Shown here one piece after another: positions 3,832 through 50,953 of a stretch of DNA of 64,000 nt. This DNA is from Chrysomallon squamiferum. Taxonomy: Eukaryota; Animalia; Mollusca. Position numbers and translations under genes: made by a program. The notes below the pieces were generated by a model. It did no database searches. It was not told where the DNA came from and was given only the letters and a program-made list of their open reading frames with translations. Positions within the stretch are counted from its first letter, which is position 1. Every line of letters begins with the position of its first letter. Where the stretch lies: NCBI GenBank assembly GCA_012295275.1, contig CM022675.1:12958001-13022000 (forward strand). Reading direction: 5' to 3'.

Positions 3832-3949
3832 TTTATTGCACAGTTTCATTTGACGTTGTGTATAATCAAAAGATTATTAAAGAATTTTCAAATTTAGTAA
3901 ATCACGTTTTGCACGGTTAATGTCTTCTGTATCGTTACTTCCTGTAAGT
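3832..3949 (-). other. Non-coding terminal exon and AATAAA poly(A) signal of CAP paralog 1
   Basis: Donor 4 nt after the stop (4495), acceptor ttttcag ending at 3950, AATAAA at 3832-3837. The same exon and signal recur at 16586-16591, 28819-28824 and 43610-43615. Confidence 0.75.
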
Positions 3950-4499
3950 CTGAAAACAAAAATTATATATATTAATTATATTTTGTTTGTTTGTTTGTTT
4001 GTTTACTTATATATTTTTTTAGTTAGGTATTTTTTTTTTTTTTTTTTTTTTTTTTAATTTTTTATTTATTTATTTATTTATTTATTTTACTTTTTTTTAT
4101 TATTATTTATATATACTTTTATGAACATGTAGATAATAAAAAAAGAAGCAGAATAATAGCATTAACTGTATTGATAGTCCTGTCGACTGAAGGTGTTTAT
4201 AAATTTATAAATAAATCTTCTATAAAATGTGAATATTTTAACACGATCTTTGATACATCAGTTGTACAGTATTAGTTATAAAAGTGTTGAATAAGAAACA
4301 ACCCAGTGAGTGTATTAACAACAAGAAAACAATAGTACGTGGAAAGAGAACAAGAACAAGCAGAACAAAAACAGAAGAAACAAAAAACGAATAATAGAGA
4401 TAATAATACAGAAAACAACATGAAGAAAAATAAAAAGAAGTAAACCAATAATAATAAGAAGAAATCTAAAAAAAAAAGCAATATGGCGATCTTACCAGT

Positions 4500-46700: not shown

Positions 46701-49700
46701 ATTTTATTCTGTCTCAAGGTAGAGAGCATCCGAATTAGACAAGGTTTTCTTCCTAATAGATTAATACCAGGTACTTGAAAATGTGCCAGTTTACTGAGAA
46801 ATCCATATTAGTCAGAGATATATATATATATACAGAAACACAAACAGAAACACAAACATAAACACACACTTACATATACACAGATTCACTCTCAATGTAG
46901 AAGTCAGTCACTCTGTTTACAATGTTTCTAATAATTATTTCACATTTACTTGTACTTGTTGACGTTATATTTTTCAGTGAGGCTTTTGACATCTCCGGCG
47001 ACCTCCTGCTCAGAGTCTGCGGGGAAATATCTCGTCTTTCACTGGTGACTTCGTTCGGTTGACAAACTAAGCTAATTTCTGGAAGGACATTTCGAAATTA
47101 CAAAGTAAAATGGTTCAGTCAAAAGAGAGGTGATAAGAAACACAAATTATAAACGTTTTAGCCTCTGCAAATCCTTCTAGACACTTCAGATGTATCGTTT
47201 TACATAGGATTTTAGAGATTCCTGTTCAAACTAATAATGGACACAGATTATCTGTCTCATAGTGAAAGATATGTGAAGGAAAAGGGAATTATAAAATTGT
47301 CATTTTTTTTTTTTTAACGAAAACTGGAACGAAAACTGTAGTATGCATTTGTCTCCTGGCAGCCATGAATATCAGAAGAAAAATGTAATATAAATATATA
47401 TATATATACACACACACATATATATAATATCTGTTTTATTTTACTTACCTACGATATTATATTAGTTTCATAAGTAACATCTTCGGCTGATCATCTAAAA
47501 TACACGGTTTTGTTTTTGATTTCTTCAGAAAGAGAAAGGCGCGTGTCGAAATATGTGCAAAGACTACACTTTAGAAAGTGTTTGAGGTAAAGAATGATTC
47601 TCAGAGTAGATTTCGTCAGCTCTGGTTTACTGGAAGCTGTAGACTCTGGATGTCAATTGTGCACAAATAAAAAATAATAATGATGATGATGAGAAAGTGG
47701 CTACGTTGTAGTCTGAACGAGGCAGACGAAGAGCACGTCGTACTCACCTTCTTCTGCTGTCAACCCAACGACGTCGTACTCACCTTCTTCTGCTGTCAAC
47801 CCAACGACGTCGTACTCACCTTCTGCTGTCAACGCAACGACATCGTACTCACATTCTTCTGCTGTCAACTCAACGACGTCGTACTCACCTTCTTCTTCTG
47901 CTGTCAACTCAACGACGTCGTACTCACCTTCTTCTTCTGCTGTCAACTCAACGACGTCGTACTCACCTTCTTCTGCTGTCAACTCGATGCAGTAACTGGA
48001 CAGCGAGGACGCACTCTCTTTAGACAACAAGATCGGAACCGCCACAGCTGCGACGTCTTTGAGACGAGTTGCCTCCTCTTCACACGACAACTTAAAAGAG
48101 CTAAAGTTCAGAAACGATCCGCAGCCTTGCGGTCCAGCGGGCATCGTCATAGTCACATTGACGTCATCTGATTGCGTCACTAGAATGCAACTGCACGTCG
48201 TCATGAAGGATGCTGAGGCGGAGGTGTCCAGGTAGACGCGAGTGCCAAAATTTGAAGAATCAGTACACATTTTAACAACTGAAAAAAACAACAAAAAAGC
48301 AAAAACGATAACATGGACAGATTGGCATACGAATAAGAATGATTTTAATAAAATAGTAATAACTTATTCATCTTTGAATAGTAATAACTTATTTATTCAT
48401 GCGGTGGACAAACATACAAACACAAGAGATCATTATCATCATCATCGTCATCATCATCATCATCACCAGCAGCATTAAGTAGAGGTATTAGTAGCAGTAG
48501 CGTAGTACTAGTAGTAGTAGAGTGCTACTAATAGTAGTAGTAGCATAACAGTTTTAGTGCTTGTATTTTAGTACTAGGAACAGAATCAGTAGACGTGGTG
48601 GTAGTACTGTTAGTGGTTCCTGTAGCAGTGCTAATAGTTGTGGTACTAGCAGGAGTAGCAATAACTGTTGTTGTTGTATGGTAACATAAATACTATACAC
48701 GTGGCAAATTAAACGAGAGAAAAGAACAGCAGTACACAGAAGATTAGTGGTAGTAATAATAGCTGAAGCAACAGTAACAGAAATAGTACAACTACAAGTA
48801 AATTCAAAAGAATTATTAGACACATATGTACTAAGACTGTAAACACAGTAACTGACTTTTACATAGAAAATGTGTATATATATATATATATTTGTGTGTC
48901 TATATGTATGTATGTCTATACTGTATAATGTGTGTATAATGTGTTTATGTGTAGGTATGTATGTTTTTATCTCTGTATTTGTGTGTATTTCTATGTAGAT
49001 ATATGTGCACACACACATACACACACACACACACACACATACATACATACATACATACATACATACATACATACATACATACATATATCTACACCGAATT
49101 TCTACATCAACGGGAACCATTTCAATGTCCCTGTAAGCTATCGTTAATCTATTATGAACAAAACTTTGTTTAATTCGGATGATCTCTTCATCGTATTCTG
49201 GGTGTAAATTCCAGAACAAAATAATCATCATTACCGACGTAGTGATCATTACCAACAGTTTTTCGAAATCAGAGAAAAAAAAAAAACAGTTTTAAAAAGC
49301 CGCAGTCGTCGATGACAGACTGTTTTTCAGTTGACACTTGATAGATGTTTAATAGTAATAATTGTAATTAAAAATATTTCAGTTCATGTCATTTCAATCT
49401 TGATAAACTGGCACTGTACAAAGTGCGCATATCGTTGGTACCAATTAAAGCCGACTTTGAAAGTCCACCACACACACACACCCACACACACATGTATGTA
49501 TGTATGTATATGCATCACTTGATTCAATATTTCATATATCTTGTATAGTTTGTGTTTCAAAAACTTGTGAAACATATAATTTATATCCTATTTGCGTAAT
49601 ATAAATAAGTAGTATGTACCTGGAAACGAAGTTATGTGACATACACCGTCTGAAATAAAAGAAAATATACTTACTGATTAATTAATTTATTTTTCTATTT

Positions 49701-50953
49701 CTTTACTTCTTTTATTTGCTTTTTTTTATTTATTTAATTATGTATGAATTTATTTATGAACTACAAAGTGATAATTTAGACGTTGGTAATTTAATTATTC
49801 GTTAATATTCATGTAAGGTTGACATTTTCATTAAATACCAGTCGTCAACGTTAAACTGTCGGTTTATCGTTCAAAATAATAATAAAAACAAATAGCATGC
49901 AATACGTGTGCGTCACGTTGTATTGCCTTCATATATATGACTTACCTGTTCTAATCATCTTTGCATGCAGAGTTTTTATGAATATTTGCATGAATGTTAT
50001 GAGTGTAGTATATCTTCGTTTAATAATATATATTATGTACGTATTTGAAAATATGAGAGAGAGAGAGAGAGAGAGAGAGAGAGAGAGAGAGAGAGAGAGA
50101 GAGAGAGAGAGAGAGAGACACACACAGAAAGAGAAACAGAGAAACAGAGAGAAAGAAAGAGAGAGAGAAACAGAGAGAGACAGAGAGAGAAGGATAGAGA
50201 CAGAGAGAGAGAAAGAGAGAGAGAGAGAGAGAGAGAGACAGAGAGAGAAAGAGAGAAAGAGAGAGAGAGAGAGAGAGAGAGAGAGAGAGAGAGAGAGAGA
50301 GAGAGAGAGAGAGAGAGAGAGAGAGAGAGAGAGAGAGAGAGAGAGAGAGAGAGAGAGAGAGTATGCATATGTATGATAAACGGTTGGTTTTGTAGATGAG
50401 CAATTCTTAATTGGTTCTGTGTGTTAACAAAAAGAAAACTATCTTTGTTTGCATCAGTAAATAATTTCAATTTTTCTAAATGGAGGTTATCCTGTTTGAT
50501 AAATAAAATGTTGTTGAATACGAATATTTAACGTGTATGGATAAATACCCCAGTGTTACTTCATTTCATTATATGTGTGTGTATTTCAGACTGGCGAATT
50601 TTTCGTATTCAAATTCAACTTGTTTATTTTATTTTTTTCATCTTAACATATTTAGGCAAACAAGGAACCCAGCAGCTATTTCACCACAAGTAAAACACAC
50701 ACCCTCACATTAAGAGAACTGATAGTCTTTGTACAAACTCATCTCTACAGTAATATTTTGTCTTCATAAGTAAATAAATATTAAATAAATGTACTGAAAT
50801 CTTAAACTCTACGTGGAGATTAGGTTCATGTTTGTTATATAAATGATGAAAGGTAAATAAACAAATTGATTTAGTATACTTACCAGCTGTCACAGAAGCA
50901 ACTGTCAAGATGGTTAGAAGAAGATAAAGGTTTTGAAAATCGAGACGAAACAT
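43719..50953 (-). CDS. Secreted chimeric protein (~258 aa): signal peptide, unidentified 8-Cys domain, Ser/Thr linker, two 5-Cys ShK-like modules homologous to the CAP-gene tail
   Basis: Exons: 50884-50953 (MFRLDFQNLYLLLTILTVASVTA); 49620-49649 (DGVCHITSFP); 47967-48278 (VVKMCTDS...TCSCIL...GCGSFL...LSCEE...YCIELTAEE); 46950-47078 (EISLVCQPNE...NITSTST); 45002-45106 (SCTDRAWDVILDIWHDMCGRSSIKEICKFSCGLCS); 44278-44400 (GSDCSDTKSSKCDENMNRSFREGLEKFCQTADEACTGLCKN); 43719-43726 (KL*). All introns are phase 1, total 777 nt. The acceptor before 45106 is a weaker GAG. Confidence 0.72.
47735..47985 (-). repeat. 33-39 nt tandem repeat of exon end plus splice donor (7 GTGAGT donors)
   Basis: actcac (reverse complement gtgagt) at 47742, 47778, 47814, 47847, 47883, 47922 and 47961. 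Confidence 0.95.
50054..50361. repeat. (AG)n microsatellite, interrupted
   Basis: Direct reading; a similar (AG)n run lies at 19849-19951. Confidence 0.98.

What the first reader, a model, noticed from the sequence alone, without database searches (positions are those of the whole stretch)
3832..50953. Tandem cluster of modular secreted CAP-EGF-ShK-mucin proteins ending in a cationic Cys-rich tail
Seen: three intact 14-exon paralogs plus a related fourth gene, none visible in the ORF track. Known: the N-terminal half (KR..C.Y....HT.CLTD...PLTQ, GQN, GHY.Q, hinge, CFNGG EGF, ShK) follows the layout of cone-snail venom-duct CAP proteins Tex31/Mr30, which end after one ShK-like domain. Here four further parts follow: EGF, a Thr stalk, EGF and two Arg/Trp-rich modules. 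Inference: a two-headed secreted effector, with a CAP/ShK head tethered by an O-glycosylated stalk to a polycationic anchor. A role in venom/saliva, defence or gamete/egg coat is possible. I do not recognise this full architecture as described.
Basis: partly seen in the sequence, partly recalled or inferred. Interest (0 to 1): 0.85.

Follow-up and report, generated by a model that had tools for sequence, protein, structure and literature searches.

The report
Stalked CAP proteins with cationic tail
Three tandem genes, whose closest match is in a symbiont-bearing deep-sea vent snail, encode predicted secreted CAP-family proteins with a fast-changing middle, a long threonine stalk and a positively charged tail that likely sticks to bacterial or mucus surfaces; they are probably not venom.

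Summary
Genes A, B and C (minus strand) each have 14 phase-consistent coding exons: signal peptide, CAP, hinge, EGF, ShK, EGF, Thr stalk, EGF and two 5-Cys modules (net +8 to +12). Gene D is not a CAP gene. It shares only the two tail exons and the 3' end, and its tail is acidic. The whole layout already exists as one RefSeq model in the chemosymbiotic vent snail Gigantopelta aegis (XP_041352054.1, 46-48% identical over the N-terminal part). It was the only one of 35 longer hits with both stalk and cationic tail, and it groups with A-C (100/99). So this is a lineage-specific extension of the known molluscan CAP-ShK type II proteins, not found described in 10 literature searches. Two further observations: tail module 1 is an ShK-like fold missing one cysteine (best solved match aurelin, weak); and A and B are 90-100% identical except in hinge-EGF-ShK-EGF (63-74%), which differs more than the adjacent introns. 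The ShK exon lacks the dyad lysine. No RNA evidence was obtained. Best reading: a surface-tethered host-microbe or mucosal protein; venom is unlikely.

The parts
4500..12639 (-). Gene A, 14 coding exons, 551 aa: 12639-12570, 11945-11923, 11318-11163, 10892-10802, 10324-10173, 9737-9631, 9259-9165, 8268-8170, 7636-7529, 6710-6615, 6427-6092, 5737-5639, 5026-4922, 4618-4500
   Evidence: exons 3-10 and 12 match G. aegis P0003 in order
12570..12639 (-). A exon 1, predicted signal peptide (identical in A, B, C)
   Evidence: only hydrophobic window, Kyte-Doolittle 1.75; 70/70 nt identical; SignalP not run
9631..11318 (-). A exons 3-6, CAP domain
   Evidence: Pfam CAP E 0.0019 and 0.029 on single exons; Ves v 5 and natrin E 0.025-0.028; orthologue P0003 passes the Pfam cut-off
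6615..9259 (-). A exons 7-10: hinge, EGF1, ShK, EGF2 = hypervariable cassette
   Evidence: 63-74% nt identity A vs B against 90-100% in other exons except the stalk; ShK exon aligns without gaps to ShK
6092..6427 (-). A exon 11, Thr/Pro/Ser stalk (111 aa, 69 Thr; B 71 aa; C 139 aa, 101 Thr), predicted O-glycosylated
5639..5737 (-). A exon 12, EGF3
   Evidence: Pfam EGF families E 0.0014-0.04, below cut-offs
4922..5026 (-). A exon 13, tail module T1: ShK-like, 5 Cys (spacing 15-8-3-2), net +4
   Evidence: Pfam ShK E 0.017-0.064 in all 4 copies; Atlas ShK clusters 0.93; aurelin E 0.055
4500..4618 (-). A exon 14, tail module T2: 5 Cys (7-15-6-3), net +8, amphipathic helix; no family match
   Evidence: same Cys spacing in P0003 569-605 (7-15-7-3)
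3832..3949 (-). A terminal non-coding exon with AATAAA at 3837; equivalents in B (16703), C (28934), D (43726)
   Evidence: predicted from sequence, no RNA
17229..25300 (-). Gene B, 14 modelled exons, 521 aa; usual stalk acceptor lost; hinge exon 21767-21676 used
21565..21640 (-). B remnant copy of the hinge exon (stops in all frames read from its acceptor region)
29543..38255 (-). Gene C, 14 exons, 591 aa; tail net +1 and +7
44258..50953 (-). Gene D, no CAP: signal peptide, unassigned 8-Cys domain (exons 49649-49620, 48278-47967, 47078-46950), optional acidic 36-nt repeats, acidic T1 (45106-45002) and T2 (44400-44258)
   Evidence: no Pfam, Atlas or fold assignment

Best explanation
A, B and C are a tandem, lineage-specific offshoot of molluscan CAP-ShK type II proteins that are predicted to be secreted and likely act as two-ended surface tethers at a host-microbe or mucosal surface. 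Shown: the exon and domain layout, the charge of the tail, the G. aegis orthologue and the fast-diverging middle cassette. Inferred: (1) T1 and T2 are ShK-derived modules, each with an odd number of cysteines, that would be locked together by one shared disulfide. (2) Their Arg-rich amphipathic face would bind anionic surfaces (bacterial envelope, sulfated mucus or matrix), as aurelin binds anionic lipid. (3) The O-glycosylated Thr stalk would hold the head away from that surface. (4) The CAP domain would bind lipid, and the hinge-EGF-ShK-EGF cassette would set which target each paralog recognises. Paralogs keep near-identical leader, CAP and tail (recent duplication or gene conversion) while the cassette diverges. 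D is an exon-shuffled user of the same tail with the charge reversed.
For: Same architecture in one G. aegis polypeptide, tail net +21 with 12 Cys (7+5, both modules odd again); A-C plus two G. aegis proteins form one clade, 100/99. All 10 tail Cys are kept across A-D at 36% nt difference (C vs D); 0 of 200,000 neutral simulations keep them without a stop. T2 hydrophobic moment 1.0-1.1 in A-C, 0.77 in D. No membrane or GPI-type C-terminus, so any anchoring would be non-covalent. Cassette A vs B: 98 of 291 non-synonymous sites differ against 218 of 1586 aligned intron bases (Fisher p 1e-14) and about 25 of 704 sites in flanking exons. Aurelin binds anionic vesicles and lacks the dyad (PMC10608444 passages). 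[quoted passage not shown]
Against: No expression, localisation or binding data for these genes. The oesophageal-gland pair (ctg1523-3.24/3.25) is not shown to be P0003/P0004; G. aegis has 21 KOG3017 genes, with a second adjacent pair, and none shares a contig with a TTC25 gene as the window's genes neighbour one. Other G. aegis CAP genes are in the shell-matrix list. Synonymous sites in the cassette differ as much as non-synonymous ones (dN 0.45, dS 0.46), so the standard dN/dS>1 test is not met for the cassette as a whole. The aurelin match is weak (E 0.055). T1 does not align significantly with the G. aegis first tail module, and T2 only weakly (blastp E 0.001, hhalign probability 3%). T2 has no family match. 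The window's species is not known.
Confidence: 0.45

Rival explanations
1. Structural or adhesive matrix protein (shell, periostracum, egg covering or adhesive mucus): the cationic Cys-rich tail would bind acidic matrix or mineral and cross-link through its odd cysteines.
For: Oyster type II genes are mantle-specific (PMC6409789 Discussion part 1). Basic CAP proteins with disordered regions are in the Lottia shell matrix (PMC4094399 passages). CAP-domain proteins are in the G. aegis matrix list. An acidic counterpart (D) lies next door.
Against: One G. aegis matrix CAP (ctg401-0.0-1, CAP at 89-214) fits P0052 (88-214) by coordinates, which falls outside this clade. Divergence concentrated in four small disulfide modules fits target recognition better than a structural role (inference).
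Confidence: 0.25
2. Gamete or egg-coat recognition protein: the tail would stick to the sperm or egg surface and the variable cassette would give species or allele specificity.
For: Tandem copies with homogenised flanks and a fast core. CRISPs are linked to the mammalian reproductive system (passage).
Against: No gonad evidence seen. The only tissue lead in a relative points to the oesophageal gland, though its orthology is unproven.
Confidence: 0.15
3. Venom or salivary effector that modulates ion channels, like the salivary CreCAP-ShK proteins.
For: Same broad family; the ShK exon has exact ShK cysteine spacing; CreCAP-ShK genes are salivary-specific in Cumia.
Against: No Lys at the dyad position in A, B or C, although the dyad is neither needed nor sufficient. 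The closest relative lives on chemosynthetic symbionts (abstract). Type II genes occur in non-predatory molluscs.
Confidence: 0.08
4. The main product is a short Tex31-like CAP-EGF-ShK protein and the downstream exons are rarely used.
For: Read-through of the ShK donor gives a stop after two codons in all three genes. The G. aegis paralog model P0004 ends after EGF2.
Against: No AATAAA in intron 9 of A or B (2 in C). The tail Cys pattern is under constraint. P0003 carries the full chain.
Confidence: 0.07

Closest known systems
G. aegis XP_041352054.1 ('cell wall protein PRY3-like', automatic name; P0003)
   Same: Whole order: signal, CAP, PYC-type hinge, EGF, ShK, EGF, Thr stalk, EGF, cationic Cys-rich tail; 46-48% identity over CAP to EGF2; the MILHR motif after GHY.
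   Different: Uncharacterised gene model. First tail module has 7 Cys instead of 5 and does not align significantly with T1.
Molluscan CAP-ShK type II proteins (CreCAP-ShK 4-7, Conus Tex31/Mr30 clade; PMC6409789)
   Same: Signal peptide, CAP, then mixed EGF-like and poorly recognisable ShKT modules; frequent gene and domain duplication.
   Different: Described members are up to 452 aa; the word 'mucin' does not occur in that paper and no stalk or polycationic tail is described in the parts read. Cumia members are salivary.
Aurelin (jellyfish ShKT-fold antimicrobial peptide)
   Same: ShK-like fold, cationic, binds anionic lipid, no channel dyad.
   Different: A free 40-residue peptide with 6 Cys; here a 5-Cys module paired with a second module at the end of a 550-aa protein; sequence match weak.
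CLEC18 and yeast Pry3
   Same: CLEC18 is CAP-EGF-EGF-lectin, a two-headed lipid/glycan binder in innate immunity with near-identical paralogs. Pry3 is a CAP tethered to a surface by GPI.
   Different: No lectin domain and no GPI or membrane segment here; analogy of design only.

Membership tests
CAP superfamily (PF00188) | Match to the CAP domain | tested here: met
   Single exons score 19.5 and 15.7 bits, under the 21.1 cut-off; the spliced protein could not be scanned. The exon-by-exon orthologue P0003 scores 55.3; PDB hits are Ves v 5, natrin and triflin.
CAP superfamily (PF00188) | Two His plus two Glu conserved tetrad (positions recalled) | tested here: inconclusive
   His of exon 4, Glu of WE.E and His of GHYTQ are present; the first Glu is Gln (GQN) in A-C, as also in Ves v 5.
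CAP superfamily (PF00188) | Sterol or lipid binding | not testable with these tools
   Shown for Pry1 in the literature (passage); not for these proteins.
Molluscan CAP-ShK type II | Signal peptide plus CAP plus mixed EGF-like and non-canonical ShKT modules | tested here: met
Molluscan CAP-ShK type II | Falls in the clade of Tex31, Mr30 and CreCAP-ShK 4-7 | tested here: inconclusive
   Groups among gastropod proteins automatically named Mr30-like, but no reference Tex31, Mr30 or Cumia sequence was in the tree; the paper's alignment file gave no text.
ShKT domain (exon 9) | Six cysteines in ShK spacing | tested here: met
   Spacing 8-4-10-3-2 in A, B, C; gap-free alignment to ShK, E 0.08-0.2; Pfam 17.7 bits against a cut-off of 20.9.
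ShK-type K+ channel blockers | Lys-Tyr functional dyad | tested here: not met
   The aligned pair reads N-Y, Y-N and Y-Y in A, B, C.
ShKT domain (tail T1) | Six cysteines in ShK spacing | tested here: not met
   Five Cys; the second is absent in all 4 copies. ShK-like, not canonical.
ShKT domain (tail T2) | Sequence or fold match to ShKT | tested here: inconclusive
   The C1-x7-C2-x15-C spacing fits ShK lacking the third Cys, but there is no Pfam or PDB sequence match and the model is a low-confidence helix pair.
Pry3-like GPI-anchored CAP proteins | C-terminal hydrophobic GPI or membrane signal | tested here: not met
   Highest 19-residue hydropathy after residue 30 is 0.63-0.93.

The most novel reading that the evidence does not exclude
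A vent-snail-specific symbiont-handling protein family: a disulfide-locked pair of degenerate ShK modules works as a portable, charge-tunable bacterial-surface anchor (cationic in A-C, acidic in D), while a hypervariable hinge-EGF-ShK-EGF cassette under diversifying selection discriminates microbes in the symbiont-housing gland.
Probability: 0.22. Interest if true: 0.8.

Novelty: new variant of a known kind. Interest (0 to 1): 0.5.

Why it matters
Molluscan CAP-ShK proteins are labelled 'venom proteins' by databases, yet the 2019 survey notes that those of non-venomous molluscs are uncharacterised. This locus gives a testable non-venom case: a two-module tail that exists in cationic and acidic versions side by side, and paralog pairs that differ almost only in four small modules. 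That makes a natural experiment for assigning binding to each part. If the oesophageal-gland lead holds, it adds a candidate effector for how vent snails hold or police their endosymbionts.

Tried and rejected
No whole genome is held. RNA: no RNA holder listed; three RNA runs laid on 3700-7380 gave only short repeat matches and no splice joints, which is no evidence on expression; only the tail half of gene A was laid. Word-index homolog searches with two CAP exons found nothing (18 and 11 candidates); the HMMER library search then found 55 proteins. T1+T2 complex prediction: no verdict, score 0.02 against a mark of 0.34, alignments not used. The T2 model gave no Foldseek match and only generic helix hits, Z at most 4.5. 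T1 vs T2 profile comparison was not significant. D's 103-aa domain: no Pfam match, Atlas scores at most 0.80, model pLDDT 34. A metagenome scan with T1 gave 1 locus from 167 stretches, L001, an ordinary six-Cys tandem ShK and not a tail orthologue. The ctg1523 pair is absent from the synteny source file. Four look-ups of earlier scan findings were empty. Ten literature searches showed no description of a CAP-EGF-ShK-stalk-cationic-tail protein; subscription journals are mostly outside the library, and unread supplements (the alignment file of PMC6409789; Supplementary file 1 of PMC7895826; one file each of PMC11871041 and PMC7142155) may bear on this. Rejected: D as a fourth CAP paralog; a candidate D exon near 47490 (seen; stop or phase clash, judged by eye).
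Full report
Observation. The window is AT-rich animal DNA (GC 26-39% per 2 kb) with four multi-exon genes on the minus strand. I located every splice site and built the models by coordinates. A (12639-4500), B (25300-17229) and C (38255-29543) each have 14 coding exons, consistent phases, no internal stop and 47 cysteines. Exons 8-13 are all phase 1-1, so each module can be gained, lost or skipped in frame. 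A scan for open Cys-rich phase-1 exons found 15 on the minus strand (11 acceptors, 10 of them modelled), none on the plus strand, and 0-1 in each of 30 shuffles. Each gene is followed by a conserved non-coding exon with AATAAA. B has lost the usual acceptor of its stalk exon and carries a remnant second hinge exon, so its stalk may be shortened or skipped.

Gene D. D (50953-44258) has its own signal peptide and an unassigned 8-Cys domain. No CAP, EGF or head-ShK exon lies in or near it. It shares T1, T2, the end of the stalk exon and the 3' exon with A-C. Its tail is acidic (net -1 and -3 against +4/+8, +4/+8 and +1/+7). Its third exon has six in-phase donors made by a 36-nt acidic repeat. The tail is therefore a portable unit whose charge differs between neighbours.

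Domains. Exons 3-6 are CAP: weak Pfam hits on single exons and PDB hits to Ves v 5 and natrin. Exon 9 has exact ShK cysteine spacing and aligns without gaps to ShK, but has no lysine at the dyad position in any copy. Exons 8, 10 and 12 have six Cys; EGF families hit exon 12 in the 2 copies scanned and exon 10 in 2 of 3 copies, all below cut-off, and exon 8 in none, where the EGF call rests on its match to the EGF exons of P0003. The stalk is 71-139 residues, mostly Thr. T1 is ShK-like with five cysteines (Pfam ShK E 0.017-0.064 in 4 of 4 copies; Atlas ShK clusters; aurelin E 0.055). T2 has five cysteines and an amphipathic Arg-rich helix but no family match. With the recalled ShK pairing (1-6, 2-4, 3-5), T1 lacks the second and T2 would lack the third cysteine, leaving one free thiol in each; a bond between them is my inference. 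There is no hydrophobic C-terminus.

Relatives. A profile of exon 3 against 1.84 billion representatives gave 55 hits. The best single-domain hit, P0003, is RefSeq XP_041352054.1 of Gigantopelta aegis, 609 aa. It matches exons 3-10 and 12 in order, has a Thr stalk and ends in an 81-residue tail of net +21 with 7+5 cysteines, the last five spaced 7-15-7-3 as against 7-15-6-3 in T2. Sequence similarity in the tail is weak (T2 blastp E 0.001, hhalign 3%; T1 none). Of the 35 hits of 150 aa or more, only P0003 has both stalk and cationic tail. In a tree of 21 rows (A-C plus 18 hits that I chose for length and names), A-C and the two G. aegis proteins form one clade (100/99) on a long branch among gastropod Mr30-like proteins. 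The window is not G. aegis itself (46-48% identity; that genome averages 37% GC). A related snail is likely, but the species was not established.

Evolution. A and B are 90-100% identical in exons 1-6, 99% in exons 12-14, and 95-99% in introns 1-5 and 11-13, but 63-74% in exons 7-10. There, 98 of 291 non-synonymous sites differ, against 218 of 1586 locally aligned intron bases (p 1e-14). Synonymous sites differ equally (30 of 87; dN 0.45, dS 0.46), so dN/dS does not exceed 1 for the cassette; the hinge alone gives 0.66 against 0.30 on only 20 synonymous sites. Informative sites group A with B in the flanks, are mixed in the cassette, and group B with C in a short CAP tract. Homogenised flanks around a protected or fast-evolving core is the simplest reading. 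The tail is constrained: all 10 cysteines survive 36% nucleotide difference between C and D, which 0 of 200,000 neutral simulations reproduced.

Literature, and what I saw of it. PMC6409789 (passages and the first part of the Discussion) defines CAP-ShK type II proteins with mixed EGF and poor ShKT modules, places Tex31 and Mr30 there with proteins of non-predatory molluscs, and reports mantle-specific expression in oyster. PMC10608444 (passages) describes aurelin. PMC11103991 and PMC12096681 (passages) give the CLEC18 and Pry analogies. PMC4094399 (passages) lists basic CAP proteins in limpet shell. PMC4460706 and PMC12964963 (passages) cover salivary members. Four vent-snail papers were searched by term in the main text and none contains 'ShK' or 'venom'. 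[quoted passage not shown] None of these ids could be tied to P0003 or P0004.

Mechanism. The most likely reading (0.45) is a secreted two-ended tether: an Arg-rich, disulfide-locked tail binds anionic surfaces, a glycosylated stalk spaces the head, CAP binds lipid, and the variable cassette sets the target, at a host-microbe or mucosal surface. Layout, charge, orthology and divergence are shown; secretion, glycosylation, disulfides, binding and tissue are inferred. Matrix or adhesive (0.25), gamete coat (0.15), venom (0.08) and a mainly short product (0.07) are the rivals.

Verdict. The feature is real, with two corrections (D, and B's stalk acceptor). It is a new variant of a known family, present in databases under a misleading automatic name and not found described in ten searches. 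Interest 0.5.

Noticed in passing
window 551-2700, + strand: 3' end of an ODAD4/TTC25-like TPR gene (E 3e-8 to human ODAD4), convergent with gene A; its last exon holds about 30 copies of a 27-nt repeat in an open frame.
   Followed up: partly
window 13843, 26971, 41529, 41619, 53558, 54231, 54759, 57627, 60510, 63347: A 21-nt motif occurs 10 times (0 in 100 shuffles), upstream of A, B and C and in the repeats at the right; possibly a shared regulatory or mobile element.
   Followed up: partly
window 54415-64000: Tandem units of about 2.87 kb, 89-96% identical, carrying inverted pieces of the DNA upstream of the CAP genes; no exon of the cluster found in them.
   Followed up: partly
window 47735-47985, - strand: A 36-nt repeat in gene D duplicates a splice donor six times in phase, so the acidic spacer could vary in length by donor choice.
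   Followed up: partly
window 4200-5800 in run X1: Contigs of run X1 show several variant versions and loose ends over the tail exons, hinting at more copies of the tail elsewhere in the genome; depth is not a copy number.
   Followed up: no
P0005, P0057-P0061: Six variants of the same first CAP exon on unnamed ENA contigs (three on one 259-kb contig length class), suggesting a similar tandem array in another assembly.
   Followed up: partly
window 13400-13310, 25860-25750, 40530-40450, - strand: Similar stretches upstream of A, B and C; in C it ends in a consensus donor, so it may be a non-coding first exon.
   Followed up: no
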